The notes: generated by a model from the sequence alone, not told the origin. Shown: positions 8,417-55,072, numbered from the stretch's first letter. The stretch: DNA of 64,000 nt from Patescibacteria group bacterium (GCA_038065495.1 JBBTQW010000001.1:44137-108136); one strand, 5' to 3'. Translations and numbers: made by a program.

Positions 8417-8505
8417 GAGTTTAAATTTGGCTTAAATTTTTAACAGCCAAATTCTAGCAAACTAGCGCCTATTAGCCAAGAGTCGAAGCAGAGTCTCGGT
8501 GGGCA

Positions 8506-9675: not shown

Positions 9676-9722
9676 ATTTTATTTGTTAATTTCTAATTTA
9701 TCAAAATCCTAGCACAAGCTGA

Positions 9723-10472
9723 TTATTCTCCCAAATACGCCTCCACTACCTCTCGCTGCGCCAGCACCGCACTTGGCTCGCCCTCGGCGAGCAACTGACC
9801 GGAATCCAGCACAATCACGCGATCCGAAAGTTGCCGAATCAGCTCCATATTATGCTCGATCAAGATCACGACTTTATTTTGCTGTTTTAAATCTTGCAAC
9901 ACATTCGTCACAATTTTGATCATCTCGGGGAAAAGTCCGGCAAATGGTTCGTCGAAAAGAAAGATTTGAATCGGGAAAGTCTGCGCCATCGCGAGCACGC
10001 GCGCGATTTCCAACAATTTTCTCTGTCCGTACGAGAGATTAATCGCCAGTTCGCCATGTTTGCTCCACAAATTTACTTTTTCTAAAACCTCGCGCGCTCG
10101 AGCTAAGTGCAGATTGTTATGCTTTTCAAATAGTGCGCTAAAAACTGGTCTGTCTGTTAGGACTACCAAAATATTATCCAGCACACTCATTTGTTCAAAA
10201 AGTCGCACATCCTGAAAAGTCCGGGTAATCCCGTAACTCGGCACTTGCGCTATCTCTACTTTCTTTAACTTCGTCCGTTCCAGAACTACAATTTCCCCAC
10301 CATCTAGCGGCAAAACGCCGGTAAGCAAATTCACCAGCGTACTCTTGCCCGAGCCGTTGGGTCCAATGATGCTGGTAATCTGCCCGGCGGCAAACTGGAG
10401 CGACAAGTGATCCACCGCGTGCACGGCATCAAACTTCTTTACTAGATTGTGAGTGGAGAGGATGGGAGGCAT
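9723..10472 (-). CDS. livG: branched-chain amino acid ABC transporter ATP-binding protein (LivG-type)
   Basis: 249 aa with GPNGSGKST, LSYGQRKLLEIAR and FLFDEP. It shares a start/stop junction with the upstream SBP gene. Confidence 0.9.
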   Translation of the reverse strand: MPPILSTHNLVKKFDAVHAVDHLSLQFAAGQITSIIGPNGSGKSTLVNLLTGVLPLDGGEIVVLERTKLKKVEIAQVPSYGITRTFQDVRLFEQMSVLDNILVVLTDRPVFSALFEKHNNLHLARAREVLEKVNLWSKHGELAINLSYGQRKLLEIARVLAMAQTFPIQIFLFDEPFAGLFPEMIKIVTNVLQDLKQQNKVVILIEHNMELIRQLSDRVIVLDSGQLLAEGEPSAVLAQREVVEAYLGE

Positions 10473-11599
10473 TATGGTTGGGTATAAAGAACCGCTTTCC
10501 CATTAACGATTTGCTTGACGGTTGGCAGAAGACCAATTGCGTCGCCATTTTCATCGAAACCATAAGTCCCCATTACCCCTTTAAAATCCTTGAGGCTGTG
10601 CAAATAGTCTTTTAGTTTCGAGTTATCCAAACCAACATTATCAATAGCCTGCTTTATCATATAAACAGAATCGTATGTAACAGCGTCAGCAAACTTGATT
10701 GTTGGTGCACGACCATAAAGCGACTCAAATTTATGGAAAAGTTCACTTTTTATTTGATTGTTACCAACATTAGGATCAGCAAAGAAAATCATTCCTTCTG
10801 CTTCGGATATTTCAATGACTTCTTCTAATTCACCAAAATAATTACCGTAAATTGGACCTTTATATCCCAATTGCCGCAATTGTCTTAACGCAGAGATTCC
10901 CCCAAGTGGTGCATTTGGATTCATAACCACTGTTTCTGGTTTTTTGGAAATTACATCAAGGACATAACCCCTAAAATCGGTAGTACCTGGAGGGTAATTT
11001 TCTTCAATGACTTCTCCTTGAAAATATTTTTTAAATGCCTTAAGTAAACCGACTGTAAAATCACTCGTTTCTGTTATGACTGCTACTTTCCCATACTTTT
11101 TATTAATCGTCTCCGCCATAACTCTACCAGTATCATCATCAGAGTAAGAATTACGGAAAATAAATTCTCCAGCACCAGTTAAATCAGGATGCGTAGCCCA
11201 CATCGACATCATCAAAACTTGATTCCTCTCGGCCACCGGTGCTACCGCCAAGGCTTCTTGACCACAAATCACCAACAGAATCTTCACCTTGTTTACCGTA
11301 ATCAATTTTTGCGCCGCAGAGAGTGCATCCTTGGGACCACATTTACCATCCTCGTAAATGATTTCTAAAGCCTGACCATTAACACCTCCGGAAGTGTTTA
11401 TTTCCTCGCGAGCGATTTCCACAACATCCCTCATTTCTTCCCCCCAAGCTGCAGCAAAACCAGACAACGGGCCGATAAAACCAATCTTCACAGTCTCACC
11501 ATTTTTTTCTCCAGAATTCTCACTTTTGCTCGCATAAACAGCGATAAAAATTAGCGCGAGAAGTACGAATAACCAGATTATTTTGTTTTGGGCTTGCAT
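10472..11599 (-). CDS. ABC transporter substrate-binding protein, LivK/Peripla_BP_6 family (paralog 3)
   Basis: 375 aa with VKIGFIGPLSGFAAAWGEEMRDVVEIAREEINTSGGVNGQ. Confidence 0.85.
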   Translation of the reverse strand: MQAQNKIIWLFVLLALIFIAVYASKSENSGEKNGETVKIGFIGPLSGFAAAWGEEMRDVVEIAREEINTSGGVNGQALEIIYEDGKCGPKDALSAAQKLITVNKVKILLVICGQEALAVAPVAERNQVLMMSMWATHPDLTGAGEFIFRNSYSDDDTGRVMAETINKKYGKVAVITETSDFTVGLLKAFKKYFQGEVIEENYPPGTTDFRGYVLDVISKKPETVVMNPNAPLGGISALRQLRQLGYKGPIYGNYFGELEEVIEISEAEGMIFFADPNVGNNQIKSELFHKFESLYGRAPTIKFADAVTYDSVYMIKQAIDNVGLDNSKLKDYLHSLKDFKGVMGTYGFDENGDAIGLLPTVKQIVNGKAVLYTQP

Positions 11600-11611
11600 G
11601 ATTTTATTTTT

Positions 11612-12478
11612 TTATAATTTATATTCCCCTACCAAGCCTTGCGGGCGGTAAAGCATTAGTATAACTAAAATCAGACCATAGACCACCTGCCGCATCTGCG
11701 CCGCGATGTCGCTGGGGAAGCCCACAAAGCGCAATAATTCTGGCAAGAGAATGAGAAACAAAGCGCCGAGTAGCGAGCCACGGAGATTGGCTAAGCCGCC
11801 CAGAATGATAATAGCGAGAATAAAGATAGATTCAAATAGAACGAAACTAGACGGATCAACGAAGGTGATGTAAGAGGCAAAGAGCGAACCAGCCACGGCA
11901 GCCAGCGCGGCTGATAAAACAAAGATTATGAGTTTGTAAAAAGTGGTACGATAGCCAAAAACTTGGAGCGCTTGTTCGTCCTCGCGAATAGCGCGGAGGG
12001 CGCGGCCGAAAGAAGAATTGACGATAAAGCGGCATAAGAAATAAACTAATAACAAAATCGCTAGCACTAATAGCAAAAAGTGAAAGTTGTCAGTCAAGTT
12101 GAGGCCAAAAATCTCCGGACGTCTAATACCGGGGATGCCGAGCGGACCTCTGGTTAGGCTTTGCCAGTTGAGGAAAACCGAATAGATAATAATGTTAAAG
12201 CCAAAAGAGCCGAGCGCGTAATAATCGCCGTGGAAGCGGGACAAAACTAAACCAATTAACAAAGCCAAGACAGAAGTGATGAGCACGCCGAGTAGCAAAG
12301 CCACGAAAAAGTTGAGCCCGGTGCTGGTGAGCAAGATCGCCGTGGCATAGGCGCCCAGACCATAGAACGCCGCATGCGTCACACTTAGCAAGCCGGTGTA
12401 GCCCACCACCAAGTTTAAGCTCAAGCCGAGGATGCCGTAGATGCCAACAAGGATTGCTAAGTGAATTAAGTAAGGCAT
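11612..12478 (-). CDS. livM: branched-chain amino acid ABC transporter permease (LivM-type)
   Basis: 288 aa, polytopic, with the LivM-like GYTGLLSVTHAAFYGLGAY motif. Confidence 0.85.
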   Translation of the reverse strand: MPYLIHLAILVGIYGILGLSLNLVVGYTGLLSVTHAAFYGLGAYATAILLTSTGLNFFVALLLGVLITSVLALLIGLVLSRFHGDYYALGSFGFNIIIYSVFLNWQSLTRGPLGIPGIRRPEIFGLNLTDNFHFLLLVLAILLLVYFLCRFIVNSSFGRALRAIREDEQALQVFGYRTTFYKLIIFVLSAALAAVAGSLFASYITFVDPSSFVLFESIFILAIIILGGLANLRGSLLGALFLILLPELLRFVGFPSDIAAQMRQVVYGLILVILMLYRPQGLVGEYKL

Positions 12479-12490
12479 GATTTTTTACTT

Positions 12491-13351
12491 CTATCTTTTG
12501 AACAAGCCCTGCGGGCGGAAAATTAAGAACACAATTAGTAAAGCAAAAGCGATCGCGTCCTTCCACTCGCCCGAGATCTGCCAAATGCCAAAGTTCTCCA
12601 CCGTGCCAAGCAAGAAGGCGCCCAGCACGCCGCCATAGATATTGCCGATGCCGCCCACAATCGCCGCGATCACGCCCTTGAGCAGCAAGTTGAGCCCCAT
12701 CGTCGGCTCAATGCCAGTGTCGAAGCCCACCAAGACGCCCGCCAAGCCACCAATGGCCGCGGAGAGGAAGAAGACAAAGCTGATGATTTTATCAGTATTA
12801 ATCCCCACCACCCGCGCCACCTCTTCATCATCGCCCACCGCTTTAATTGCCCGGCCAAATCTAGTCCGATTGAGGAAGAACGCTAGCGCGAGCATAATCA
12901 GCAAGCCGCTGGCAAGAATCACCAACTGCACGCCGGTAATCGCGCCGCCAATCACTTCATAAATTTTCCCTTCGCCAGCCGAGAGAGTTTGAAACTGACT
13001 GGAAAACAGGATCGCAATCACGGCTTGGAGAGCTGTGAAAATCCCGAGCGAGGCCACTAGCAAGACCATTGTCGAGGCTTTGCGGCGGCGCAATGGTCGG
13101 TAAACGAAGTAATCTGCTAAGTAACCAACCAAACCGGCAAGTAAAATTGCCAAGACCACGCTCAAGCCCAAGTTCAGACCGATTATTTTATACAACCAAT
13201 ACACGCCATAACCACCGATCGCCATCATCACGCCGTAACTAAGGTCAAAAAACTTGACCGTGCTGTAGATGAGATTAAAGCCAAGCGCGATCATCGTGTA
13301 GATCGCGCCGGCGATAATGCTATTGAGAATGAGTTGCGGCAGGATGCCCAT
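12491..13351 (-). CDS. livH: branched-chain amino acid ABC transporter permease (LivH-type)
   Basis: 286 aa, polytopic BPD_transp_2-like. Confidence 0.85.
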   Translation of the reverse strand: MGILPQLILNSIIAGAIYTMIALGFNLIYSTVKFFDLSYGVMMAIGGYGVYWLYKIIGLNLGLSVVLAILLAGLVGYLADYFVYRPLRRRKASTMVLLVASLGIFTALQAVIAILFSSQFQTLSAGEGKIYEVIGGAITGVQLVILASGLLIMLALAFFLNRTRFGRAIKAVGDDEEVARVVGINTDKIISFVFFLSAAIGGLAGVLVGFDTGIEPTMGLNLLLKGVIAAIVGGIGNIYGGVLGAFLLGTVENFGIWQISGEWKDAIAFALLIVFLIFRPQGLFKR

Positions 13352-13371
13352 TGGGCGAGATTTTTACTTTT

Positions 13372-14544
13372 TTAGCTAGCCAGTTCGGCCTTGCCGTTCT
13401 TGATGACTTTCAACACGTGGCCGCCCACACGATCACCGTCCGCGCCGATCGTTACCAAACCAGAAGCTCCCGGCCAATCTTTGACTGTTCTTACCCAAGT
13501 GGCAATCTTTCCCGCATCAGTCCCGTTTTTGTTAATTCCTTCTGCCAGAATATAGACTAAGTCGTATTGTGCTTGAGCATAGTTACGATAAATCATTTCT
13601 TTGCCGTATTTTTTGAGATAGTCCGCGTCGAGTTTTTGCGATTTCGGCAAGCTCGCTGTCCCTTGTTCGGCAACCAATGCGCCCTCAAGTCTCGTTTTGT
13701 GATTAGTAATCAAGTCAGCATTGCCAGAGACAATGTCGTTTGCCAAGAGTGGCACCGACCACTTGAGATCAGCTAGCTGTTTGAGAATCCGTTCGGCCGT
13801 GCCAGGAGATTGAGGATCGATGAACAAAGCATCAGCATTCGCTGCCCGCAATTTCGTGAGAGTAGAACGAAAGTCAGTGGTAGTGCCTGGATACTCTTCT
13901 TTCGTGATTGTCCCCGCCGTTGCTGGGTAATTAGCTTCGAAAGCACGATAAATACCAAGAGCATAATCCGAGGATTCCTGCAGAACGGCTACCTTTTTCC
14001 AACCATGAGCAATCGCGGCCTCGGCTAGCACCCGACCCTGGCCATTGTCGCTAGCCACAGTCCGGGCGAAAAACAGACTTTTGTTTGTCAAATCAGGACT
14101 AGTGGCTGTGCCAGAAAACACAAAGACTTTCGCTTGCTCGGCAATTGGCAAACCGGCCAGAACGGCGCCAGAACAATCCGAGGCGATCACAATCTTGACG
14201 CCGTCAGCGTTGACTAACTTCTGCATTGCATTAGCACCGCCAGTGCCATTGCATTTCCCGTCTTCGTAAACTAGTTCAAATGTTCGGCCATTAATCACAT
14301 TATTTGTGTTGACTTCTTCCACCGCTAGATCAGTCACATTTTTCACAAACTCTCCCAAAGCTGCGGCGTCGCCAGTTAGTGGCGTAATCACACCAACCTT
14401 AATCGGCCCAGTTTCCACCACCGGAGTGGGAGTTTCTGTAGTAGTGGGTGCGCTAGATTGACTCGCTTTGCCGAGATAGGCCAGACCGATAACCAACAGA
14501 ACCAAGATAATCAAACCAACTATCGCTTTGCCAGTATTGCTCAT
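13372..14544 (-). CDS. ABC transporter substrate-binding protein, LivK/Peripla_BP_6 family (paralog 4), first gene of operon
   Basis: 390 aa with IKVGVITPLTGDAAALGEFVKNVTDLAVEEVNTNNVINGR. Confidence 0.85.
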   Translation of the reverse strand: MSNTGKAIVGLIILVLLVIGLAYLGKASQSSAPTTTETPTPVVETGPIKVGVITPLTGDAAALGEFVKNVTDLAVEEVNTNNVINGRTFELVYEDGKCNGTGGANAMQKLVNADGVKIVIASDCSGAVLAGLPIAEQAKVFVFSGTATSPDLTNKSLFFARTVASDNGQGRVLAEAAIAHGWKKVAVLQESSDYALGIYRAFEANYPATAGTITKEEYPGTTTDFRSTLTKLRAANADALFIDPQSPGTAERILKQLADLKWSVPLLANDIVSGNADLITNHKTRLEGALVAEQGTASLPKSQKLDADYLKKYGKEMIYRNYAQAQYDLVYILAEGINKNGTDAGKIATWVRTVKDWPGASGLVTIGADGDRVGGHVLKVIKNGKAELAS

Positions 14545-14593: not shown

Positions 14594-14627
14594 TGCACAC
14601 TCTATTATTATATCATTTCCTCCAACT
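14594..14627 (-). promoter_or_regulatory. candidate promoter for the liv-type operon (TTGCAA-15-TGaTATAAT, extended -10), overlapping the 3' end of pepF
   Basis: Reverse complement reads ttgcaaagttggaggaaatgaTATAAT. Inferred by eye only. Confidence 0.35.
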
Positions 14628-16392
14628 TTGCAATCTTCGCCTCTATTTCCTTCAAACCGCGCTCAAAAAACGCCGGATTTCTCACGTCTACACCAACTTG
14701 CGCGAAAATATCCTCCGGCGAAGCGCTAGAACCGGCAGATAAAAACTGTCTGATTTTTTCTTCAAACTTATTATTTTCTTGATAGCTGGAATATAAAGCA
14801 TTAGAGACTAATTCGCCGAAAGCGTAAGAATAAACATAGAAAAAATTGCGCAAGTGCGACCATGAGACGAAAAAGTAGCCATCAGCTTCTGTGAGCTTAA
14901 ACACCGGCCCAAGATAAGCGCTCATGTGCTGATTTAACAATTTCGCAATTTTTTCTTTACTCAAGCTCCCCTGTTTTCTGATTTGATTATGCAGATCAAG
15001 CTCAAAGTTGAAGCACGCGATTTGCCGGAAGATGGTCATCACAGAGTCATTAATCCGGTCATGTAAAGCTATTATTTTCTCTTTTTCAGTCAGCAGATTA
15101 AACACTTCGTCAAAGACGAAATTTTCGAATAAAGTGCTGGCCACTTCGGCCGTCGCGATGCTGTGGCCGCGGTAGAGCGGCGGCTGGGCGGCATCGCCCA
15201 GCCTGGCATGCATGGCATGCCCCAGCTCGTGAGCCAAAGTCATCAGTGACTTAAAATCCGACAAGTGATTGAGCAAGACAAAGGTTGGCAAGCCTTCTGT
15301 ACTAGAGCAATAAGCGCCGCCGGTCTTCCCGACTTTCGGAAACACATCAATCTGGCCGTTGGCCAAGAATTCTTCAAAAGCCGTCACATAAATCGGATTA
15401 ACTCGGCCGAAAGCTTTCTTCACAATTTCTACCGCTTGGGCAAAAGTAATTTTCTGCGTGGTCTGGCCTACTGGCGCAGCGCGATCGGCGTAAGTTAGGT
15501 TTTTCAAACCCAACATTTTCGCTTTCGCTTTATAAAATCTGTGGCTGATGTGAAAATTTTTAGTAACCGTTTTGACGAGATTATCCACGGTTTTCTCTTC
15601 ATTCTGATAACCCAGAACCGTGGCCGAGTAAGGTTGCGCATAGCCGCGCAGTTCGTCATTGATTTTTTTGTTTAAAACTATGGCGTTTAGTTCACTCTCG
15701 GCGAAATCAGCGACGCTGGCTAATTTTTGATTTACCAAAGTGTGCAATTCTCGTCGCTCTTTCGTTGCCAAAGATTGGATTTTCCCCATTGCTTCGGCCA
15801 GTGGCAATTTTTTATTTTTCCAGAGAATTTCTTGTTTAGAAACAATTTTGTCGTTCCCGCGCACCCACAGCTCATGGGCTGGCAAACTCTTCAAGTTCAT
15901 GATTTTTTCTTCAGCAACAGAGAGCACATGCTTGGCTTCGCGAAAAGCGCATTGGAGTAAAAAACTATATTTCTGCAACTTAGCGTGCTTAAGAAATTTG
16001 GCCTGCAGTTCTGGTTTAATTTTCGTCAGCGCCACACCAAAGAAGGTGATCTTGTTGCCACTATTGGTGTACCTCTGCCCGAGCAAATTTAGCTTCGCCT
16101 CCACTTTGGCATTTTTACTGTCCAGATCATGTTGATAAGCAAAGTAAGCATAAGGCTTACTAAATGCCTGATCAGATAATTTCTCATAATCTGCGAGCGC
16201 TAGCGCGAGCTTGACCGGATCAGTCAGGTAATCCGTTTTGTTCGCATATTTCTGCGCAAACTTTTCATGTGCTTGTTCCATCTTCTGCAAATCACGTTCT
16301 ATGGCCGAATCAGCGTTATTCCGGTACAGCAAACTAAAATCCCAATCCGTTTTGATTTTACTTGTTTTATTTCCAGTCATAATAATCCGCAA
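14608..16392 (-). CDS. pepF: oligoendopeptidase F (M3 family zinc metallopeptidase)
   Basis: 594 aa with an HELGHAMH zinc-binding HEXXH motif and M3B-like length and architecture. Confidence 0.9.
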   Translation of the reverse strand: MRIIMTGNKTSKIKTDWDFSLLYRNNADSAIERDLQKMEQAHEKFAQKYANKTDYLTDPVKLALALADYEKLSDQAFSKPYAYFAYQHDLDSKNAKVEAKLNLLGQRYTNSGNKITFFGVALTKIKPELQAKFLKHAKLQKYSFLLQCAFREAKHVLSVAEEKIMNLKSLPAHELWVRGNDKIVSKQEILWKNKKLPLAEAMGKIQSLATKERRELHTLVNQKLASVADFAESELNAIVLNKKINDELRGYAQPYSATVLGYQNEEKTVDNLVKTVTKNFHISHRFYKAKAKMLGLKNLTYADRAAPVGQTTQKITFAQAVEIVKKAFGRVNPIYVTAFEEFLANGQIDVFPKVGKTGGAYCSSTEGLPTFVLLNHLSDFKSLMTLAHELGHAMHARLGDAAQPPLYRGHSIATAEVASTLFENFVFDEVFNLLTEKEKIIALHDRINDSVMTIFRQIACFNFELDLHNQIRKQGSLSKEKIAKLLNQHMSAYLGPVFKLTEADGYFFVSWSHLRNFFYVYSYAFGELVSNALYSSYQENNKFEEKIRQFLSAGSSASPEDIFAQVGVDVRNPAFFERGLKEIEAKIAKLEEMI

Positions 16393-19250: not shown

Positions 19251-19284
19251 GAATATTAGCGCATTATAACGGAATTTTGAGCAA

Positions 19285-19321
19285 GAAAAAAGGGCCCCAA
19301 CATCACAATGATGAGGGGCCC
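19285..19321 (-). terminator. Rho-independent terminator (GGGCCCC...GGGGCCC hairpin plus T-run on minus strand)
   Basis: Plus strand reads aaaaaaGGGCCCCaacatcacaatgatgaGGGGCCC. It terminates the minus-strand gene 19360..19593. Confidence 0.6.
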
Positions 19322-19359
19322 GGAAAGTACTCCATTTTCTAGCTTCGGGCTGCTGGCCG

Positions 19360-19593
19360 TTAGCTGAAGGTCATACCAGATTTGTTGTTGCTACCGAACG
19401 CGAAAGCGAGCGCGCTGGCGACGAGAGAGTTGATCTGCGCGGTGATCCTCTTCTTCAGGTGGTTGGTAGCGCGGCTGGTGGGATCGTTGTTGTGTCGCGT
19501 AATCAATTTGTTCACGATGAATCCTCCAAAAAATGGAGACCACTTGGCGAAGCAGTTCTCTCTGGCAAACGAGCCAGAAACTGGATCAAACAT
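19360..19593 (-). CDS. small hypothetical protein (77 aa), weakly supported
   Basis: ORF flanked by two terminators with a weak upstream promoter-like element (TTGGCA-14-TATATT) but no SD. The C-terminus is hydrophobic. Confidence 0.35.
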   Translation of the reverse strand: MFDPVSGSFARENCFAKWSPFFGGFIVNKLITRHNNDPTSRATNHLKKRITAQINSLVASALAFAFGSNNKSGMTFS

Positions 19594-19669
19594 AAAGAAC
19601 TGCGGCCACGTTTAATATAGCACAAAACTATTCTGCCAAGCCAGAGTTATCCACAGTGGATTTTTAAGC

Positions 19670-19706
19670 AAAAAAAAATGCCCCCGAACAACAGCTGTTC
19701 GGGGGC
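19670..19706 (-). terminator. Rho-independent terminator (GCCCCCGAACA...TGTTCGGGGGC plus T9 on minus strand)
   Basis: Plus strand reads aaaaaaaaatGCCCCCGAACAacagcTGTTCGGGGGC. It ends the transcript started at promoter P2. Confidence 0.65.
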
Positions 19707-19876
19707 AGAAGGGATCATGTTTTGGCATCTGTTATCTTTGGGCCATCCTAGGGACAGCTTGCAGAGCGTGTCAGGCTCAATGATGCTCAACGATTGAATC
19801 CTTTCAATGGTTGGTCTCTACATTGTTTAGTGGCCGGCCACACAGTGTGGCCGGGTCGCTGCGCCGCCGAGGTTGA

Positions 19877-19990
19877 TCAGCTGCTGGCGTCGTCGCCGTC
19901 GTGCATCGTGATGTCGTGAGAACTCTGATAACAATTACGATGGGTGTTGACCGTGGCGAAATTGCCACCATAGTGATTCCGGACGAGCAT
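19877..19990 (-). CDS. candidate 37-aa peptide (MLVRNHYGGNFATVNTHRNCYQSSHDITMHDGDDASS) on a promoter-to-terminator transcript of about 400 nt; could instead be a non-coding sRNA
   Basis: ATG at 19990 is preceded by AAAGGAGCCTCAA (strong SD, 7-nt spacer). Promoter P2 lies upstream and the terminator at 19670-19706 downstream. The longer track ORF 19877..20080 would need a GTG start without an SD. Confidence 0.35.
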   Translation of the reverse strand: MLVRNHYGGNFATVNTHRNCYQSSHDITMHDGDDASS

Positions 19991-20089
19991 TTGAGGCTCC
20001 TTTGGTCCAAAACGTGGACCGGTAGAAAGAACTTGTCCCCTGTGACTGCGTGTGTCTCTCAAGACAACTCCTCCAATCACTCTACCCCC

Positions 20090-20117
20090 AGTATAGCAAG
20101 CCCACAGGATTTGTCAA
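20090..20117 (-). promoter_or_regulatory. sigma70 consensus promoter module P2 (TTGACA-16-TATACT, then GGGGGTAGAGTG)
   Basis: Reverse complement reads ttgacaaatcctgtgggcttgcTATACTgggggtagagtg, nearly identical to P6. Confidence 0.65.
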
Positions 20118-20158
20118 GTGTTTTGGCAAGATCAAGAGTTTAAATAGCCGAAATACGC

Positions 20159-21157: not shown

Positions 21158-22042
21158 TTAATTAGCAAATTTATAAAAAACTTTCCCCGGGAAGCGTAAA
21201 TCAAGATATTCTAACTCTTGCTTATTCTTTTGCGCTATTTGATATTCTGTAACAAAATCCGGCGCGAGCAGAGCCGCTTGCAGAGTTAAATTTAATTCAC
21301 TACTCACCTGTTCCAGATTAGCCAAAACTGTGAGTGGCCGAGAGAGCGTATCAGCCGCGCGCGTGGCCGTCAAACGATAATCGCTAGCGCTATTCGCCAC
21401 CAGTTCGCTAATCGCCAAGCCAGATAGAATCGTCTGACTGAACGTGTGATTGAGCGTCGTGATTAAATTAGTGATTTGGGTAAAGTTTTGGACCGAAAAT
21501 GGTCGCGTGTTGAGCGCAAGATTTGGGCCTGATGTGGTAAATCTGACAAAAGATTCGCCGGAGAAAACTGGTGCCGGCGCAAAGGCCAGACCAGACTGAT
21601 CGAGCAAGAAACAGATTTGTGGCTGATCACTACCACACCAGAGATATTGCCCGCGCCGCTCGGCCACAACAATCTTGATCGTTGTAAAGTTCTCGCGTGA
21701 GATTTGCGCTGACTCTAGGGTTGGGAATTGCGCGAGCAAGGCTTGCGCGAGCGCCCGCCGCGGATACCACAGGGCATTGCGCCGTGGTAGCACGAACAAA
21801 TAATCACCGGCGAGAAATTCTTGCGTGGCTTGATCTAAAATATCCTGACTCACTGTTTCTTGACCAGCGATCTGGACTTGGCTGATGAGCAAACGCGAGT
21901 GATTGGCAAAAATAATAAAATCAGCAAGCAGCGCGAGAGCGAGCAACAGCCACAGGCTAGAGCGCCAGAGGCGCTCGCGCTGGCGCCGCGCCAGCGCTTG
22001 CTCGCTAAAAATCGCTTTCTTACTTTGCCGGGCGGCACTCAT
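21158..22042 (-). CDS. FtsQ/DivIB-like cell division protein (TM anchor + POTRA-like region), tentative
   Basis: 294 aa. A TM segment (WRSSLWLLLALALLADFIIF) is followed by ...ISQVQIAGQETVSQDILDQA... resembling the POTRA start of FtsQ. Weak family call. Confidence 0.45.
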   Translation of the reverse strand: MSAARQSKKAIFSEQALARRQRERLWRSSLWLLLALALLADFIIFANHSRLLISQVQIAGQETVSQDILDQATQEFLAGDYLFVLPRRNALWYPRRALAQALLAQFPTLESAQISRENFTTIKIVVAERRGQYLWCGSDQPQICFLLDQSGLAFAPAPVFSGESFVRFTTSGPNLALNTRPFSVQNFTQITNLITTLNHTFSQTILSGLAISELVANSASDYRLTATRAADTLSRPLTVLANLEQVSSELNLTLQAALLAPDFVTEYQIAQKNKQELEYLDLRFPGKVFYKFAN

Positions 22043-24510
22043 GCGTTAGTACTAGTTTGCAAACTCAAAGTGCCAGCGAGCCAAGTGGCGCTCGCGCCCG
22101 GCTTGAGCCGACCACTGATAATGGCATCGGCCACCGCTTGCTCTACGTGATCTTGAATATAACGCGCCATTGGCCGAGCGCCAAAGAGCGGATCACTACC
22201 CTTCTGCACCACTTCGGCCACCAATTCTGGCGTGACTTGGAAAGCGATCCCCTGCTCGCGCAAGCGCAGAACTAATTTCTCTAGCTGGAGCTTAGCCACT
22301 TGCGCTAGATTCTGCTCGCTAAGCGGCTGGAAGATCACAACTTCATCAAATCGGTTCAGCAATTCTGGACGGAAAATGCCCGCCTGCACGATTTGATTGA
22401 TTAGTTCAGCCCGCATCGTGCTGGGATCACGCTTAGCTCTGATCATTTGCCAAATAATTTCGGCGCCGGCATTGGACGTAGCCAAGAAAACGATATTTCG
22501 CGCATTAACTCTCCGACCCAACATATCAGAAAAGTAGCCTTCGTCGAGAATTTGCAAAAATAAATTCAGCACGTCTTTGTTAGTCTTTTCAAATTCATCC
22601 AAGAGCAAGACGCCATAAGGATTCTGGCGCAAAAGCTTGGCGAGTAGGCCAGGTTTACCATCGCTAAACGAGCCGATCAAGCGCGAGAGTGACTCGGCGG
22701 ATTGATACTCGCTCATATCCAGGCGCATCATCGCCTCCTCGCGGCCAAAGAGTACCCGCGCCAAGGCTTTGGCCGTTTCCGTCTTACCCACGCCAGTGGA
22801 GCCGAGGAACAAGAACGAGCCAATCGGGCGTTTCTCGTTCCGCACACCCGCGCGAGCTCGTCTTAGAGCCTCACTAATCGCCGCGAGCGCTGTCTCCTGG
22901 CCAATTACTTGCTTTTTCAGCTCTGTTTCTAGACCCAATAACTTAGCCTGTTCCGGCGCGGCAATCGGACCGAGCGGAATGCCGGTCTTCTCTTGCACAA
23001 AAGTGAGCACTTCATCGCGTTCGATTATTCTCGTCTCTCTCCCCGCTTCTCGCTCATGATTTATCACCCACGGCACAATTTCCGTCAGCAGATCCAACGC
23101 CTGATCAGAAATATTCTCAGACGGAAAATAGCGTTCCGCACTGGTGATTAGTGCTGTTAGTGCCTGATAAGTAAAAAAGATTTGTGACTTATTTTTTGAC
23201 TCTAAATCAACCGCCTGCGTTTCTAGAATTTTTATCAATCTAGTTTGATCAATAGTGGCGACTAATAATTGCTCAAAGCGTTGCAAGAGCGTGTCGCGTG
23301 TTTCTAACTCCCGATGGAAGAGTTCACGATCAGCGAGTGCTACTACCATCAGCGCCGGCGAGATGAGAAACTGATCAAGTAAAGCCGTGATGTTACTGCC
23401 TAAGCGTTCGGCCCCAGCCAGCAAAGCGGGCAAGTCGTCGATAATCAGAATAATATTGCCGGCGCTGATAGCCTCACTCAAGAGCTTGAACAATTCCCGC
23501 TCCAGCAGCTCCCGCTCGCGGAAGGCGGCCAAGAAGAGCGCGGTGTGGAAGAGTATTGGCCGGCGATGTTCCAAGCCGGGCGGCACCGCGCCCAGCGCGA
23601 GCTCGCGCACCAGTTCCCACACAATATCTAGCTTGCCGGAGCCAGCCTCGCCCACCACCAGCGCATTGGCCTCCGCCGAGCGCAAGAGAATAGTGGCGAG
23701 CCGCCGCGCCTCGGCGCGGCGGGCACTGGTGCCCGCGGCCAGCGTGGCCGTGGGCTCGCCCGCGAGCAAGTCCTCGCTGTAGCGGAGCAAGGTCGGCACT
23801 TGGCCATAAGACCAAGTCTTGGCCAAGCCCGGGATGCGCTCTAAGTGCTCGCGACTCCACCAACGCTCGGCTCGCGCTCGCGCTTCGATCTCATTCACGA
23901 TCCACTCCACAGCGCCATCAAGTTCCGCGATTTTAATATTTAAGCTAAATAGCCACTTGCTAAAACTCTCATCATGCTGGTAGAGCCAGTCGGCCAAGCG
24001 GCGCAAAGTGAGCGCCTCTGCGCCGCCCAGTTCTAGTTTGACCACTGTTTGTAAATTAGCGTCGCGTTGCTGGAGAAAGCTCGCAATTTGCTGGTAACTC
24101 ACGCCCAAGCGTTGCATCACAGCGAGACCAGTTGAGGAAGTTAAGAAAGCGCTCCAGACATCATCATTTTTTAACTTAAACAAAATCCGGCCAACGGTGA
24201 AAGTAAACAGATCTGCGCGATGATAATTATTATCCAGAATATTGTCGTAATAATAAGAACGGAAAAAGCACTCTATTAAATAGACTAGTAGAGTTAGTGC
24301 CAGCGTGATCATCGCCAAGCCAATCCAGCGTGAGAGAGCGACAGCGCCGCCTTGCCACCAAGCGTGAGCGAGCAACAAAATCAGACCAAGCGCGAGCAAT
24401 TTGCCAACAAACAACAAAATATTCCGCGCACGACGGGAGATTAATTCTTCCAGCAACAAAACTGGATAGAGACGACTCAAACGAATTTTATCAGCAAGGG
24501 TAGAGGGCAT
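22039..24510 (-). CDS. membrane-anchored Clp/Hsp100-like AAA+ ATPase with a degenerate first ATPase module and an intact ClpA/ClpC-type D2 module
   Basis: 823 aa. The N-terminus has 2-3 TM helices. The first module is degenerate (GEAGSGKLDIV...IILIIDDLP) and the second is a canonical ClpA/B D2 (GSTGVGKTETAKALA...LLDEFEKTNKDVLNLFLQILDEG...FLATSN). GC-rich. Confidence 0.7.
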   Translation of the reverse strand: MPSTLADKIRLSRLYPVLLLEELISRRARNILLFVGKLLALGLILLLAHAWWQGGAVALSRWIGLAMITLALTLLVYLIECFFRSYYYDNILDNNYHRADLFTFTVGRILFKLKNDDVWSAFLTSSTGLAVMQRLGVSYQQIASFLQQRDANLQTVVKLELGGAEALTLRRLADWLYQHDESFSKWLFSLNIKIAELDGAVEWIVNEIEARARAERWWSREHLERIPGLAKTWSYGQVPTLLRYSEDLLAGEPTATLAAGTSARRAEARRLATILLRSAEANALVVGEAGSGKLDIVWELVRELALGAVPPGLEHRRPILFHTALFLAAFRERELLERELFKLLSEAISAGNIILIIDDLPALLAGAERLGSNITALLDQFLISPALMVVALADRELFHRELETRDTLLQRFEQLLVATIDQTRLIKILETQAVDLESKNKSQIFFTYQALTALITSAERYFPSENISDQALDLLTEIVPWVINHEREAGRETRIIERDEVLTFVQEKTGIPLGPIAAPEQAKLLGLETELKKQVIGQETALAAISEALRRARAGVRNEKRPIGSFLFLGSTGVGKTETAKALARVLFGREEAMMRLDMSEYQSAESLSRLIGSFSDGKPGLLAKLLRQNPYGVLLLDEFEKTNKDVLNLFLQILDEGYFSDMLGRRVNARNIVFLATSNAGAEIIWQMIRAKRDPSTMRAELINQIVQAGIFRPELLNRFDEVVIFQPLSEQNLAQVAKLQLEKLVLRLREQGIAFQVTPELVAEVVQKGSDPLFGARPMARYIQDHVEQAVADAIISGRLKPGASATWLAGTLSLQTSTNA

Positions 24511-24516: not shown

Positions 24517-24906
24517 TTATTTAAACAACAAGGCTAGACCCAAAACTAAAGCCAAAATAATAATCAACGGCAAAACCAGCCATAGAATTAAAGTAACTGA
24601 GCCGAGCAAAATTACTAATAAATAAACCAAACCACCGAACACGAGCATAATTATTCTGATCACAGCGCCAACCAAACGCATGAGAGAATTGATGAAGAAA
24701 GTCGCAAGCGTAGCGCCGAGATTAAAGCGCGCTGGATAAACTTCGCCCAACCTCTTCCACGGCGCTAATAAAGTTCTGGCTAAAACTGAGATTGAGAAAA
24801 AGTGATAAATAAACCAGAGATAATTGCCCCAGATCACGACCAAATCGCGCCAGGCTAGGGTGTAATGCCACCAGAGATACTCAAACGGTAGGGCCAATAA
24901 CGGCAT
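24517..24906 (-). CDS. hypothetical polytopic membrane protein
   Basis: 129 aa, highly hydrophobic, overlapping the serS stop by about 26 nt. Confidence 0.45.
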   Translation of the reverse strand: MPLLALPFEYLWWHYTLAWRDLVVIWGNYLWFIYHFFSISVLARTLLAPWKRLGEVYPARFNLGATLATFFINSLMRLVGAVIRIIMLVFGGLVYLLVILLGSVTLILWLVLPLIIILALVLGLALLFK

Positions 24907-26143
24907 AGCCTAAATATTTTGCTAAAGCCTCTGGCAACTTAATGCTGCCGTCAGCTTGTTGATAATTCTCGATCAGTGAGACCAAAATTCTTGGCGTCGG
25001 TATAGCCGTGCTATTGAGCGAGTGCGCATATTTTAACTTCCCATCTTCTCCATCGCGATAACGGATATTCAATCTTCTCGTCTGGAAATCATGGAAATAA
25101 GAAGCCGAACTAATCTCGCGATATTTGCCCTCCAGTGGCACCCACAGTTCAATGTCATATTTCTTCACCTGACCCAAACCAAGATCGCCACCGCAGTTCA
25201 CCACCGTGCGATACGGAATGCCGAGCAACTCAATAAATTCTTCCGTATTTCTATTCAGCGCCTCATGCTCTTGCACGGATAAATTGTGATCGGCGGCGCA
25301 GAGCGTGACTTGTTCTAGTTTGTAAAATTCATGAACTCTAATCAAGCCTTTCACATCACGGCTGTGGCTGCCCGCTTCTCTGCGAAAGCACGGCGAGAAG
25401 GCTAAATATTTTACCGGCAAATCAGCTAGTTCTAAAATCTCATCTCCATGCAAGCCCATCGTGGCCACTTCGGCAGTTCCCGCAAGATAATCTGCATCTT
25501 GCGTTTTATACAAGTCCTCTTCGCTCTGCGGCAAAAAGCCCGTGCCCAGCAAATTCTCACGCTTCACCAGCGACGGTACAATAATTGGCGTAAAACCTTT
25601 CTGACTAAAGAAGTCCAGCGCCATTCGCCAGATCGCCATAGAGAGCGTGACGCCAGCGTTCTTGAGAACATAACCTCGGAAACCCGCTACTTTCGTGCCA
25701 CGTTCTAGATCAAGCAAGTTTAATTTAGTCATCAGCTCAATGTGATCTTTGGGAGTAAAATCAAACTTTGGCTTCTCGCCCCAAGTTTTGATCTCCTGAT
25801 TGTCAGCATCGCTCTCACCGTCCGGCACAGAAATATCCGGAATATTCGGCACTTGCAACATCAGCTTCTGCCAGCTTGTCATCAATTCTCGCAGCGCTTC
25901 TTCGCCAGTTTTGAACTTCACTTTCAACTCTTTTAATTTTTCCAAAAGTTCTGGGGTTTTATTTCTGGCCAATTCTTCGCCCAGTTTATTCTGTTCAGAT
26001 CTAAGCGCTTGCACTTCTTGCATCAGTTTTAACCGCTCGTCATCTATTTTCAGTAAATCTTCAACGTTAAAATCCACACGCTTCTTCTTAGCCGCGGCAC
26101 GCACCAGATCAGCATTTTCCCGAATAAACTTGATGTCTAGCAT
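24881..26143 (-). CDS. serS: seryl-tRNA synthetase
   Basis: Start at MLDIKFIRENADLV (the ORF extends 11 codons upstream). An N-terminal coiled coil is followed by class II motifs (FRREAGSHSRDVKGLIRVHEF..., GGDLG...). Confidence 0.9.
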   Translation of the reverse strand: MLDIKFIRENADLVRAAAKKKRVDFNVEDLLKIDDERLKLMQEVQALRSEQNKLGEELARNKTPELLEKLKELKVKFKTGEEALRELMTSWQKLMLQVPNIPDISVPDGESDADNQEIKTWGEKPKFDFTPKDHIELMTKLNLLDLERGTKVAGFRGYVLKNAGVTLSMAIWRMALDFFSQKGFTPIIVPSLVKRENLLGTGFLPQSEEDLYKTQDADYLAGTAEVATMGLHGDEILELADLPVKYLAFSPCFRREAGSHSRDVKGLIRVHEFYKLEQVTLCAADHNLSVQEHEALNRNTEEFIELLGIPYRTVVNCGGDLGLGQVKKYDIELWVPLEGKYREISSASYFHDFQTRRLNIRYRDGEDGKLKYAHSLNSTAIPTPRILVSLIENYQQADGSIKLPEALAKYLGYAVIGPTV

Positions 26144-26221
26144 GTTAAATAAAATTATAACAAAAAAACGCCTCATCTCACAATCAAGTGGGACAAGGCG
26201 TGGCGGACGACAAAACAGAAC

Positions 26222-54875: not shown

Positions 54876-55072
54876 CTGTGATAGAATAATTTTCGACAAC
54901 TTAATAGTAAAAGTAGCCTAAACCAGTGAGTAATCACTGGCATGGCGAAAGTCAGTCACGTAATGCACAGAAAACCCATCATGGGGTCGCATTACGTGCC
55001 GTATCGGGAAACCGATACGAGTGGCGCAAGCCACTACCTGTGGTGGGCTTTCTGTTCCTCGCTACAGGTAAT
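54876..55072 (+). ncRNA. candidate structured non-coding RNA or cis-regulatory leader, unknown class
   Basis: Three plus-strand GNRA-capped hairpins: CCAGTGA-GTAA-TCACTGG, CGTATCGG-GAAA-CCGATACG and GTGGC-GCAA-GCCAC. A 10-bp stem CACGTAATGC...GCATTACGTG encloses ACAGAAAACCCATCATGGGGTC. A long-range 8-bp helix pairs TTACCTGT (54877-84) with ACAGGTAA (55065-72). The GCCAC strand can alternatively pair downstream (CCAC-TACCTGT-GGTGG), giving mutually exclusive hairpins. On the minus strand the loops are non-GNRA, so plus orientation is inferred. No ORF with an RBS is present. Confidence 0.4.

What the first reader, a model, noticed from the sequence alone, without database searches (positions are those of the whole stretch)
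22039..24510. Membrane-anchored Clp/Hsp100-like ATPase with a degenerate first ATPase module
The 823-aa protein begins with 2-3 TM helices, which is not a feature of ClpA/B/C/X. It then has an AAA-like module with a non-canonical Walker A (GEAGSGKLD) and a DD box (IILIIDDLP), followed by an intact ClpA/ClpC-type D2 module with the sensor and C-terminal small domain.

It lies in a GC-rich block next to an FtsQ-like gene. A canonical ClpB also exists at 37801-40515, so this is an additional, divergent paralog. It may be a membrane-tethered unfoldase or disaggregase, or a partner for an unknown membrane protease.
Basis: partly seen in the sequence, partly recalled or inferred. Interest (0 to 1): 0.5.

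Follow-up and report, generated by a model that had tools for sequence, protein, structure and literature searches.

The report
Membrane-anchored Clp-like ATPase with partner
This gene encodes a membrane-anchored relative of the ClpB/ClpC protein-remodelling ATPases; the family is widespread in the tiny Patescibacteria (CPR), always sits next to a small membrane partner gene, has one dead and one live ATPase ring, and lacks the tyrosine loops such machines normally use to pull on proteins, so it probably works differently from its known relatives.

Summary
Window 22039-24510 (-) encodes an 823-aa protein with this layout: a two-helix TM hairpin (N-in/C-in), a divergent Clp_N domain, a degenerate D1, no M-domain, then an intact D2 and D2-small.

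- Both rings lack the pore-loop tyrosine. D2's GYVG is removed by a 4-aa deletion.
- There is no ClpP-docking IGF/L loop.
- The 129-aa hydrophobic ORF just upstream (24517-24906) is an obligate partner. It is adjacent in 14/14 unfused loci, absent from about 70 control Clp loci, and fused to the ATPase in at least 3 lineages.

The N-terminal signature defines 695 clusters at 50% identity. Named members are all Patescibacteria. On D2 the clade separates from ClpB/ClpC (199/200 bootstraps). In 102 representatives the D1 Walker A is canonical in 1, whereas the D2 catalytic residues are intact in all 102.

Neighbours are repeatedly cell-envelope or division genes: FtsQ-like, MraZ-RsmH-PBP, MltG, MurJ, LCP.

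Best reading: a ClpP- and DnaK-independent, D2-driven membrane remodelling complex, probably acting in envelope or divisome biogenesis, and not a classical threading unfoldase. The architecture is well supported. The function is inferred. No paper describing the family was found.

The parts
22039..24510 (-). Whole ORF, 823 aa: membrane-anchored Clp/Hsp100-like ATPase
   Evidence: ORF. Pfam AAA_2 and ClpB_D2-small. AF2 model pLDDT 84.7, pTM 0.73. Foldseek best matches are two-ring ClpC/ClpB/ClpA, E 1e-44.
24235..24435 (-). N-terminal transmembrane helical hairpin (aa 26-92), N-in/C-in, with a short external loop
   Evidence: Kyte-Doolittle peaks 2.42 and 2.28. AF2 helices H26-53 and H56-92. Two TM peaks in 95/102 representatives. 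Positive-inside rule: 3.7 K+R per 15 aa before TM1 against 0.9 per 15 aa in the loop; median loop 12 aa. Coordinates verified.
23866..24225 (-). Divergent Clp_N (double Clp-repeat) domain, aa 96-215
23761..23865 (-). Family-specific conserved linker motif RWWSRxNLxRIPGLAKDWSYGxTxxLDxYSxDL (aa 216-250)
   Evidence: W218, L223 and G236 are invariant and L241 nearly invariant. The motif is retained in the partner-fusion proteins, whose similarity to the reference begins at aa 176-202. Local pLDDT is lower, 58-67. Its role as an interface is inferred.
23041..23724 (-). D1: degenerate (pseudo-ATPase) AAA+ module, aa 263-490
   Evidence: 27% identical to ClpB D1. No significant Pfam AAA hit. Confidently folded in the model. 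Family statistics.
23629..23652 (-). D1 Walker A relic GEAGSGKL (Thr/Ser replaced by Leu)
   Evidence: Alignment. In 102 representatives the motif is canonical in 1 and the P-loop Lys is kept in 29.
23431..23448 (-). D1 Walker B relic LIIDDL (catalytic Glu replaced by Asp)
   Evidence: Alignment. DE occurs in 0/102 representatives; DD 18, EN 11, DN 8 and others.
22339..22923 (-). D2 large AAA+ domain (aa 530-724), the only predicted active ATPase
   Evidence: Pfam AAA_2, 1.2e-40. 39% identical to ClpB D2. Walker A G[PST]TGVGKT, Walker B DE, sensor-1 Asn, Arg finger and sensor-2 Arg are present in 102/102 representatives.
22645..22683 (-). D2 pore-1 loop RLIGSFSDGKPGL: a 4-aa deletion removes the GYVG tyrosine motif
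   Evidence: Alignment against ClpB's LIGSPPGYVGYEEGG. A G[YFW][VIL]G motif occurs in 0/102 representatives and the loop is 4-6 aa shorter. An aromatic residue at position 615 occurs in only 59/102 and is absent in the other subclades.
22090..22323 (-). D2-small C-terminal domain (aa 730-807), including the sensor-2 motif GAR
   Evidence: Pfam ClpB_D2-small, 2.1e-21. R779 is invariant.
24517..24906 (-). Partner gene: 129-aa protein with a conserved cytoplasmic N-terminal region (WHY...FFS...TLFxPWKR) and two C-terminal TM helices
   Evidence: No Pfam or NCBIfam hit. A homolog sits directly upstream of the ATPase in 14/14 unfused loci and in none of about 70 control Clp loci. It is fused to the ATPase in P0029 (E 6e-27), P0034 and P0042. 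Its stop codon is 6 nt before the ATPase ATG. An exact database match is named 'hypothetical protein [Patescibacteria group bacterium]'.
21158..22042 (-). FtsQ-like gene (294 aa; one TM plus POTRA), translationally coupled to the ATPase by an ATGA overlap
   Evidence: POTRA_1 at E 0.0011, below the Pfam cutoff. The profile's top four PDB hits are all FtsQ, best E 4.9e-4. Homologs lie next to the pair in L001, L003, L004 and L089. The association is limited to the window's clade.

Best explanation
The gene encodes the ATPase subunit of a Patescibacteria-specific, membrane-embedded Hsp100-type machine.

**Shown**
- A two-helix hairpin anchors the protein in the cytoplasmic membrane, with both ends in the cytoplasm.
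- The hairpin is followed by a divergent Clp_N domain, then a folded but catalytically dead D1, then a fully competent D2 with its small domain.
- Three features are absent: the M-domain, the ClpP-docking loop, and the pore-loop tyrosine in either ring.
- A 129-aa two-TM protein is encoded immediately upstream in every unfused locus examined. In several lineages it is fused to the ATPase, where it replaces the ATPase's own hairpin.

**Inferred**
- The protein forms a ring, as its relatives do. D2 is the sole motor and D1 is a structural or assembly tier.
- The TM hairpins and the partner form a membrane collar.
- The Clp_N domain and the conserved Trp-rich linker motif (RWWSR...GLAKDW) contact the partner or a client at the membrane surface.
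- ATP hydrolysis in D2 drives remodelling (assembly, disassembly or release) of a membrane-embedded client. It acts independently of ClpP and DnaK and probably does not thread a polypeptide processively.
- The gene neighbourhood points to cell-envelope or divisome biogenesis as the process served.
For: **Architecture**
- Domains and motifs.
- Topology: K+R 3.7 before TM1 against 0.9 per 15 aa in the loop; median loop 12 aa.

**Family**
- 695 clusters at 50% identity carry the TM plus Clp_N signature.
- In 102 representatives the D1 Walker A is canonical in 1, D1 Walker B DE occurs in 0, and the D1 pore Tyr in 0. All five D2 catalytic motifs are present in 102/102. GYVG occurs in 0/102. The linker is 15-23 aa against 146 aa in ClpB.
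- No [ILVM]G[FLM] loop is present, whereas ClpC controls carry VGF or LGF.
- On D2 the clade separates from ClpB, ClpC and ClpE in 199/200 bootstraps.
- NCBIfam scores fall far below every Clp equivalog cutoff, for example 380 against 1232 for ClpB.

**Partner**
- Adjacent in 14/14 unfused loci, spanning Parcubacteria to Saccharibacteria, and absent from about 70 control loci.
- Three fusion proteins are only 33-35% identical to one another.

**Context**
- FtsQ-like in 5 loci; MraZ-RsmH-x-PBP in 2; MltG and MurJ; YkuD/S11; LCP; sugar transferases.

**Genetics**
- In the S. epibionticum Tn-seq (PMC10633639, Table S1), SEML1_0700 (860-aa AAA ATPase with the same domain layout) and the overlapping upstream 127-aa SEML1_0701 share the calls NE, NE, GD. 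Read counts fall in parallel, 4124 to 1638 and 258 to 51. The pair lies next to MurT/GatD.
Against: - Nothing here shows oligomeric state, ATPase activity, a physical partner interaction or a client.
- Neighbourhood evidence is weak in compact CPR genomes. The FtsQ link is confined to one clade, and three or four loci show no envelope genes (L090, L026, L023; TatC in L037).
- An aromatic residue (mostly Phe) follows LIGS in 59/102 representatives, including the window protein (F615). It could act as a non-canonical pore-loop aromatic, so threading is not excluded.
- Saccharibacterial members keep the D1 Walker A and B motifs, so 'D1 is dead' applies to the window's clade and not to the whole family.
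- Orthology of SEML1_0700/0701 rests on architecture and gene order. Sequence confirmation failed.
- The Tn-seq phenotype is mild, so the system is not essential in that organism under laboratory co-culture.
Confidence: 0.5

Rival explanations
1. Classical membrane-tethered unfoldase, extractase or disaggregase. The ring threads membrane or aggregated proteins through its central pore using non-canonical loop residues. Examples are F615 after LIGS in the window's clade, or pore-2 loops. It works like Msp1 or the ATPase part of FtsH, and may hand substrates to a separate protease.
For: - It is a full Hsp100 scaffold with a completely conserved D2 engine.
- It has a Clp_N domain, which binds substrates and adaptors in relatives.
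- An aromatic residue is present in the shortened loop in 59/102 representatives.
- The membrane anchor places it next to membrane clients.
- It coexists with a soluble ClpB, which suggests a division of labour.
Against: - A G[YFW][VIL]G motif occurs in 0/102 representatives, and the loop is 4-6 aa shorter.
- The aromatic residue is not conserved across subclades. It is absent in the L006/L008 type and in Saccharibacteria.
- The D1 pore Tyr occurs in 0/102.
- There is no M-domain for DnaK coupling.
- There is no ClpP loop.
- No protease recurs in the neighbourhood.
Confidence: 0.25
2. Motor of a transmembrane conduit. Six TM hairpins plus six two-TM partners would give up to 24 helices, forming a channel under the AAA+ ring. 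ATP hydrolysis would drive export or import of a macromolecule. This is analogous in concept to HSP101 on the EXP2 pore in PTEX, or to Bcs1.
For: - The obligate membrane partner has a fixed 1:1 gene linkage and occurs as fusions.
- A very short external loop is consistent with a pore-lining hairpin rather than a sensor.
- The unusual pore loops could suit a non-standard cargo.
- TatC is adjacent in one locus.
- Patescibacteria depend on exchange with hosts (PMC11665869; general statement).
Against: - There is no evidence of a pore, no conserved polar residues were examined, and no secretion-system genes are nearby.
- The stoichiometry and oligomer are unknown.
- Envelope-biogenesis neighbours are explained equally well by a remodelling role.
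- The Tn-seq phenotype is mild.
Confidence: 0.08
3. Non-enzymatic scaffold or regulator that merely retains an Hsp100 fold, like the plant SMAX1/D53 proteins or ClpT.
For: - D1 is dead and the pore loops are lost.
- SMAX1 appears among the PDB sequence and fold hits.
Against: All five D2 catalytic elements are invariant in 102/102 representatives at no more than 50% mutual identity. That is strong purifying selection on ATP hydrolysis.
Confidence: 0.03
4. Annotation artefact: an ordinary ClpC or ClpB with a mis-called start, so that the TM helices are not translated.
For: Public records name some homologs 'ClpC' or 'Clp protease ATP-binding subunit'.
Against: - The TM hairpin and preceding motif are conserved at the protein level across 695 clusters.
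- There is no alternative downstream start with better support. The only in-frame ATG codons in the first 300 codons after the start are at codons 67 and 132, inside TM2 and Clp_N.
- The partner's stop codon abuts the ATG.
- Every Clp equivalog cutoff is missed by a factor of about three.
Confidence: 0.01

Closest known systems
ClpB / Hsp104 (class I Hsp100 disaggregases)
   Same: - The order Clp_N, D1, D2, D2-small is the same.
- D2 is 39% identical to the window's own ClpB, and ClpB is the best NCBIfam and PDB match.
- Neither has a ClpP-docking loop.
   Different: - It has an N-terminal TM hairpin.
- It has no M-domain: the linker is 22 aa in the window protein (15-23 aa family-wide) against 146 aa in ClpB.
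- The D1 Walker A, Walker B, sensor-1 and pore Tyr are lost.
- The D2 GYVG motif is deleted.
- It scores 380 bits against the 1232 cutoff.
ClpA / ClpC (ClpP-coupled unfoldases)
   Same: - It has a two-ring scaffold, and the best Foldseek hits are ClpC chains.
- Like ClpA, it has no long M-domain.
   Different: - The IGF/IGL/VGF loop is absent, although it is present in the ClpC controls.
- There are no pore-loop tyrosines.
- It is TM-anchored and D1 is dead.
- It scores 329 bits against the 993 cutoff for ClpA.
Torsins with LAP1/LULL1 (eukaryotic ER and nuclear envelope)
   Same: By analogy of working principle:
- Both are Clp/Hsp100-related AAA+ proteins that lack aromatic pore loops.
- Both are membrane-associated through an N-terminal hydrophobic segment.
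- Both work with a dedicated transmembrane partner and with a degenerate AAA+ module (PMC5425593).
   Different: - Torsins have a single AAA+ module and lack the Arg finger, which the cofactor supplies. Here the Arg finger is invariant in cis.
- Here the degenerate AAA+ module is D1 of the same chain.
- The partner here is a small two-TM protein, not an AAA+-like fold.
- The machine faces the cytoplasm rather than a lumen, and it is bacterial.
- No homology beyond the Hsp100 clade was shown.
FtsH and Msp1/ATAD1 (membrane-anchored AAA+ extractases or proteases)
   Same: An N-terminal TM anchor places an AAA+ ring on the cytoplasmic face of a membrane. FtsH also has two TM helices per subunit.
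   Different: - Those proteins belong to the classical AAA clade, with a single AAA module and canonical aromatic pore loops. FtsH also carries an M41 protease domain.
- None of these domains is found here.
- The FtsH loop between its TM helices forms a periplasmic domain, whereas here the loop is about 12 aa.
PTEX HSP101-EXP2 and chloroplast Hsp93-Tic (Hsp100s docked on membrane translocons)
   Different: - Those Hsp100s are soluble, fully active in both rings, and keep their pore tyrosines and M-domain.
- Their membrane coupling comes from separate large pore proteins.

Membership tests
Clp/Hsp100 class I superfamily (two AAA+ modules) | N-terminal Clp_N (double Clp repeat) domain | tested here: met
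Clp/Hsp100 class I superfamily (two AAA+ modules) | Two tandem AAA+ modules, with D2 of the AAA_2 type followed by ClpB_D2-small | tested here: met
   AAA_2 at 1.2e-40 and D2-small at 2.1e-21. D1 aligns with ClpB D1 at 27% identity. Foldseek matches two-ring ClpC, ClpB and ClpA at E 1e-44.
Clp/Hsp100 class I superfamily (two AAA+ modules) | Functional Walker A and B motifs in D1 | tested here: not met
   The window protein has GEAGSGKL and IIDD. Across the family the Walker A is canonical in 1/102 and DE occurs in 0/102.
Clp/Hsp100 class I superfamily (two AAA+ modules) | Conserved aromatic pore-1 loops (KYR in D1, GYVG in D2) | tested here: not met
   The D1 Tyr column has 0/102 aromatic residues. 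The D2 G[YFW][VIL]G motif occurs in 0/102, and the loop is shortened by 4-6 aa.
ClpB (TIGR03346 / PRK10865) | Long coiled-coil M-domain inserted in the D1 small domain | tested here: not met
   There is a 146-aa gap relative to the window's ClpB. The family linker is 15-23 aa.
ClpB (TIGR03346 / PRK10865) | Score at or above the curated equivalog cutoff | tested here: not met
   380.4 bits against a cutoff of 1232.1, and 345.7 against 1417. The window's true ClpB scores 1186.
ClpA / ClpC / ClpE (ClpP partners) | IGF/IGL/VGF ClpP-docking loop after D2 sensor-1 | tested here: not met
   No [ILVM]G[FLM] tripeptide is present. The segment is 47 aa, against 52-62 aa in most ClpC-type controls, which carry VGF or LGF.
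ClpA / ClpC / ClpE (ClpP partners) | Score at or above the curated equivalog cutoff (ClpA, TIGR02639) | tested here: not met
   329.1 bits against a cutoff of 993.15.
ClpV / TssH (type VI secretion) | Equivalog score and T6SS gene context | tested here: not met
   306 bits against a cutoff of 885. No T6SS genes appear in the window or in 17 related loci.
Torsin-like AAA+ | Absence of aromatic pore loops, plus membrane association and a dedicated TM cofactor | tested here: met
   The Torsin properties are taken from PMC5425593. This is a functional analogy only.
Torsin-like AAA+ | A single AAA+ module that lacks its own Arg finger, which the cofactor supplies | tested here: not met
   There are two modules, and the D2 Arg finger R720 is present in 102/102 representatives.
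FtsH | Classical AAA module followed by a Peptidase_M41 domain | tested here: not met
   No M41 or other peptidase domain appears in the Pfam scan.
The family defined here (TM hairpin-Clp_N Hsp100 of Patescibacteria) | TM hairpin plus Clp_N N-terminal signature; small two-TM partner gene immediately upstream or fused; no M-domain; shortened Tyr-less D2 pore loop; intact D2 catalytic residues | tested here: met
   The window protein is the top hit of the N-terminal profile (P0001, 98% identical). The partner lies at 24517-24906. The motifs are shown.
The family defined here (TM hairpin-Clp_N Hsp100 of Patescibacteria) | Hexameric ring, ATPase activity, and a physical complex with the partner | not testable with these tools
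   Only monomer prediction was available. No multimer modelling or experiment was possible.

The most novel reading that the evidence does not exclude
The ATPase ring, its twelve TM helices and the small partner form a new kind of bacterial membrane machine. It would be a non-threading, Torsin-like Hsp100 (or an ATP-driven membrane conduit) that is a lineage-defining component of Patescibacterial cell-envelope or divisome assembly. It may compensate for divisome or envelope factors that these reduced genomes lack.
Probability: 0.18. Interest if true: 0.85.

Novelty: new variant of a known kind. Interest (0 to 1): 0.62.

Why it matters
Hsp100/Clp proteins are textbook soluble threading machines. 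This is a large bacterial clade (about 700 clusters at 50% identity) that differs in several ways:
- It is integral to the membrane.
- It is permanently paired with a small membrane protein.
- It runs on one ring only.
- It has lost the pore-loop tyrosines.

Together these features suggest a different mode of action. The closest conceptual parallel is the poorly understood eukaryotic Torsin system, so a simple bacterial counterpart could be informative.

The family spans Patescibacteria, which make up a large share of uncultivated bacterial diversity and have largely unknown envelope and division biology. A putative ortholog pair sits in a genetically tractable Saccharibacterium and already shows a shared fitness phenotype. 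The hypothesis can therefore be tested directly.

Public annotations such as 'ClpC', 'Clp protease ATP-binding subunit' and 'AAA family ATPase' are misleading for this family.

Tried and rejected
1. **The second 823-aa ORF (55792-58263).** I suspected a paralog, but it is GyrA and the equal length is a coincidence.
2. **Genome-collection scan with the family alignment.** The back-translated patterns were generic D2 motifs, so most of the 80 loci were ordinary ClpB or ClpC. I re-used them as negative controls.
3. **hhalign of the N-domain profile against the window ClpB N-domain.** Not significant (probability 0.4%). The Clp_N assignment needed the structure route.
4. **Linking S. epibionticum SEML1_0700/0701 to the family by sequence.** The last homology search was swamped by near-identical Nanoperiomorbus copies, so the link remains based on architecture and gene order.
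5. **AFDB50 fold search for taxonomic spread.** The library was unavailable.
6. **'GC-rich block' as a sign of horizontal transfer.** Rejected: z=1.0, and synteny with SerRS, DprA, TopA, Dus and DnaX is conserved in relatives.
7. **Strict monophyly of my hand-picked 'family plus fusions' set.** It failed (3/100) because L023 groups with the P0046-like protein. The larger membrane-anchored clade is supported at 199/200. The first two tree scripts failed for technical reasons.
8. **Literature searches.** Seven searches found no description of a TM-anchored Hsp100 or of this family.
9. **L007 upstream small gene.** It is not homologous to the partner. P0046 instead appears to carry a divergent partner-like N-terminus.

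Full report
**1. Observation**

The 823-aa ORF at 22039-24510 (-) is real. Kyte-Doolittle analysis finds two strongly hydrophobic segments, at aa 28-52 and 56-85. AlphaFold2, run with a 34-sequence family alignment, gives a confident model (pLDDT 84.7, pTM 0.73). In that model residues 26-53 and 56-92 form a long helical hairpin.

Pfam detects only the second module: AAA_2 at 561-724 (1e-40) and ClpB_D2-small at 730-807 (2e-21). It finds no Clp_N, no AAA_lid_9 and no significant AAA hit for the first module. NCBIfam matches to ClpB, ClpA, ClpV, ClpG and ClpK all fall about three-fold below their curated cutoffs, for example 380 against 1232 bits for ClpB.

BLASTP against the window's own ClpB (37801-40515, -) aligns D2 at 39% identity and D1 at 27%. 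GEAGSGKL lies opposite GEAGTGKT, and IIDDL opposite FIDEI.

The other 823-aa ORF in the window is GyrA, so the equal length is a coincidence. The 'GC-rich block' is not exceptional: gene GC is 0.526, z=1.0, and six genes are richer.

**2.

*(b) M-domain.* There is none. ClpB has 146 residues where this protein has 22.

*(c) Pore loops.* The D1 pore loop has no tyrosine. In D2 a four-residue deletion removes GYVG: LIGS----FSDGKPG against LIGSPPGYVGYEEGG.

*(d) ClpP-docking loop.* The segment after sensor-1 is 47 aa and has no [ILVM]G[FLM] tripeptide. ClpC-type proteins from Bacillus-like control loci carry VGF or LGF there.

*(e) D2 catalytic residues.* The D2 Walker A, Walker B, sensor-1 Asn, Arg finger and sensor-2 GAR are all present.

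*(f) Linker.* A Trp-rich motif between Clp_N and D1, RWWSRxNLxRIPGLAKDWSYGxTxxLDxYSxDL (aa 216-250), is among the most conserved parts of the protein outside D2.

*(g) Topology.* The positive-inside rule indicates N-in/C-in with only a ~12-aa external loop. There are 3.7 K+R per 15 aa before TM1 against 0.9 in the loop (n=96). The whole ATPase therefore faces the cytoplasm, and there is no external domain.

**3. The family**

Full-length homologs at 35-98% identity exist. Where they are named, they come from Parcubacteria or Patescibacteria such as Vogelbacteria. Their names include 'hypothetical protein', 'AAA family ATPase', 'ClpC' and 'Clp R domain-containing protein'.

A profile of the family-specific N-terminus (TM hairpin plus Clp_N) was searched against 1.84 billion cluster representatives. 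It finds 695 clusters at E<=1e-3 and 473 at E<=1e-10. Most full-length hits are about 800-830 aa, and the match almost always begins near residue 1.

Motif states in 102 full-length representatives:

| Feature | Count out of 102 |
|---|---|
| Two TM peaks | 95 |
| D1 Walker A canonical | 1 |
| D1 P-loop Lys retained | 29 |
| D1 Walker B 'DE' | 0 |
| D1 pore-loop Tyr | 0 |
| D2 Walker A, Walker B, sensor-1, Arg finger, sensor-2 | 102 each |
| GYVG-type motif in D2 | 0 |
| Aromatic residue after LIGS | 59 |

The D2 loop is 4-6 aa shorter than in ClpB, and the linker is 15-23 aa.

More distant members were found in Parcubacteria DG_74_3, other Patescibacteria and Saccharibacteria/Saccharimonadales. 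They share the TM anchor, the lack of an M-domain and the shortened Tyr-less D2 loop. The saccharibacterial ones keep GKT/GKS, and two of the three also keep DE, in D1. D1 decay is therefore specific to the window's (Parcubacteria) branch, whereas the pore-loop loss and the membrane anchoring are family-wide.

A D2-only neighbour-joining tree places all membrane-anchored forms in one clade, apart from ClpB, ClpC and ClpE, in 199/200 bootstraps. That clade includes the fusions and a zinc-ribbon/TM subgroup (P0039, P0040, P0043 and the L014 protein). A canonical, TM-less Clp from a Saccharibacterium (L034), with both tyrosine loops intact, falls outside it.

**4. The partner**

The 129-aa ORF directly upstream (24517-24906, -) has no Pfam or NCBIfam match. 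Its stop codon lies 6 nt before the ATPase start. It has a conserved N-terminal region (WHY...FFS...TLFxPWKR) and two C-terminal TM helices.

A homolog lies immediately upstream of the ATPase gene, often overlapping it, in all 14 unfused family loci where upstream sequence is available. These loci range from 89% to about 30% ATPase identity and run from Parcubacteria to Saccharibacteria. Nine of them were not used to build the profile. None of the roughly 70 ordinary ClpB or ClpC loci from other phyla has it.

In three proteins (P0029, P0034, P0042) the partner is fused to the N-terminus of the ATPase. There it replaces the ATPase's own TM hairpin and the first part of Clp_N. The three are only 33-35% identical to one another over their full length. 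P0046 seems to carry a more divergent version of the same fusion.

Fusion plus invariant adjacency is strong evidence that the two proteins act in one complex. It also fixes the partner's C-terminus on the cytoplasmic side.

**5. Context**

In the window the order on the minus strand is serS, partner, ATPase, FtsQ-like, dus. The ATPase and FtsQ-like genes share an ATGA overlap. The FtsQ-like assignment rests on a sub-threshold POTRA_1 hit and on a family profile whose four best PDB hits are all FtsQ.

Neighbours of the pair in other loci:

| Locus or organism | Neighbouring genes |
|---|---|
| L001, L003, L004, L089 | FtsQ-like |
| L006, L008 | MraZ (L006); MraZ-RsmH-(114 aa)-PBP (L008), the start of the dcw cluster |
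| L088 | YceG/MltG and MurJ |
| L089 | YkuD/Peptidase_S11 protein |
| L010 | LCP-family protein |
| L009 | Sugar transferases |
| L037 | TatC |
| L090, L026, L023 | No recognisable envelope gene |

This recurring theme comes from several different gene orders, which makes it suggestive. I did not test it statistically, and CPR operons are mixed.

**6. Experimental hint from the literature**

The Tn-seq study of the Saccharibacterium Southlakia epibionticum (PMC10633639, Tables S1 and S2) lists SEML1_0700, an 'AAA family ATPase' of 860 aa. It has AAA_2 at 544-706, D2-small at 713-792, only a weak D1 AAA hit, and no Clp_N hit. The overlapping upstream gene SEML1_0701 is a 127-aa hypothetical protein.

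Both genes have the calls NE, NE, GD over passages P0 to P2. Normalised reads fall in parallel, from 4124 to 2517 to 1638 and from 258 to 157 to 51. The pair lies beside MurT/CobQ(GatD). The canonical ClpC, SEML1_0512 (Clp_N x2, UVR), is NE throughout.

Architecture and gene order match this family. My attempt to confirm this by sequence failed, so I treat it as a lead. If orthologous, the pair is dispensable but beneficial, and the two genes behave alike.

**7. Mechanism**

*Shown:* the membrane anchor and topology, the domain order, the dead D1 in this clade, the intact D2, the missing M-domain, the missing ClpP loop, the missing pore tyrosines, and the obligate partner gene.

*Inferred from established knowledge of Hsp100 proteins:* ring assembly through the AAA+ and D2-small domains, and D2 as the only motor.

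*Inferred from the losses:*
- No ClpP coupling. The IGF/L loop is required for docking in ClpA, ClpC and ClpX.
- No DnaK coupling. The M-domain mediates it in ClpB.
- Classical hand-over-hand threading is unlikely, because the aromatic pore-1 residues are critical for it. PMC5425593 summarises this and notes that Torsins, which also lack them, are thought not to thread.

I therefore favour an ATP-driven remodeller acting on a membrane-embedded client through the partner, the Clp_N domain and the Trp-rich linker, most likely in envelope or divisome biogenesis. My overall confidence is about 0.5: high for the architecture and the complex, and roughly one in three for the envelope role.

The main rival, at 0.25, is a threading extractase or disaggregase that uses the non-canonical Phe retained after LIGS in 59/102 members, including F615 here. 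A channel-motor reading (0.08), a non-enzymatic scaffold (0.03) and an annotation artefact (0.01) are less likely, for the reasons given under rivals.

**8. Comparison and novelty**

The protein belongs to the Hsp100 superfamily by fold and by D2 sequence. It fails the defining tests for ClpB (M-domain, cutoff), ClpA/ClpC (ClpP loop, cutoff), ClpV (cutoff, context), FtsH (no protease domain, different AAA clade) and Torsin (two modules, own Arg finger).

Functionally, its closest parallel is the Torsin-cofactor system. Both are Hsp100-related, membrane-associated and free of pore-loop aromatics, and both are paired with a TM cofactor and a degenerate AAA+ module.

Seven full-text searches found no description of a TM-anchored Hsp100 or of this family. 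The library does not cover all journals, so prior description cannot be excluded. I rate it a new variant of a known kind, with interest about 0.6.

Noticed in passing
window 37801-40515 (-): The 'canonical' ClpB (904 aa; full M-domain; 1186 bits against the ClpB cutoff of 1232) carries KIGFASG exactly where ClpC proteins have their VGF/LGF ClpP-docking tripeptide. Two reference ClpBs have nothing there. The canonical Clp of a Saccharibacterium (L034) has MGF at the same place. It may be a ClpB/ClpC hybrid able to dock ClpP in Patescibacteria.
   Followed up: partly
window 54915-55035 (+): Strong match to the Rfam LOOT RNA family (RF03000): 89 bits against a gathering score of 46, over the full-length model.
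   Followed up: no
window 19251-20158: A gap of about 900 bp between dnaX and dus contains no convincing ORF. No Rfam family reaches threshold there; the best hits are sub-threshold at E 0.016-0.1.
   Followed up: partly
window 7289-14544 (-): An expanded Liv-type uptake cluster: four paralogous Peripla_BP_6 solute-binding proteins, two BPD_transp_2 permeases and an ABC ATPase, followed by an M3 oligopeptidase at 14608-16392.
   Followed up: no
P0039, P0040, P0043 and locus L014 (5001-6536 region): A sister subgroup of membrane-anchored Clp-like ATPases has an N-terminal zinc-ribbon-like CxxC...CxxC motif before the TM segment. In some of them D1 is partly degenerate and the D2 loop is shortened and Tyr-less. 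Several come from MAGs labelled Gammaproteobacteria, a label that may be unreliable.
   Followed up: partly
L091 (1108-3414), plus P0034 and P0042: Partner-ATPase fusion proteins lack the ATPase's own TM hairpin and the first Clp repeat. In these lineages the partner alone supplies the membrane anchor.
   Followed up: yes
window 24881-24906: The serS gene (24881-26176, -) overlaps the start of the partner gene by 26 nt. The order serS, partner, ATPase, with DprA and TopA upstream and Dus and DnaX downstream, is conserved in L003 and L089, indicating vertical inheritance.
   Followed up: yes
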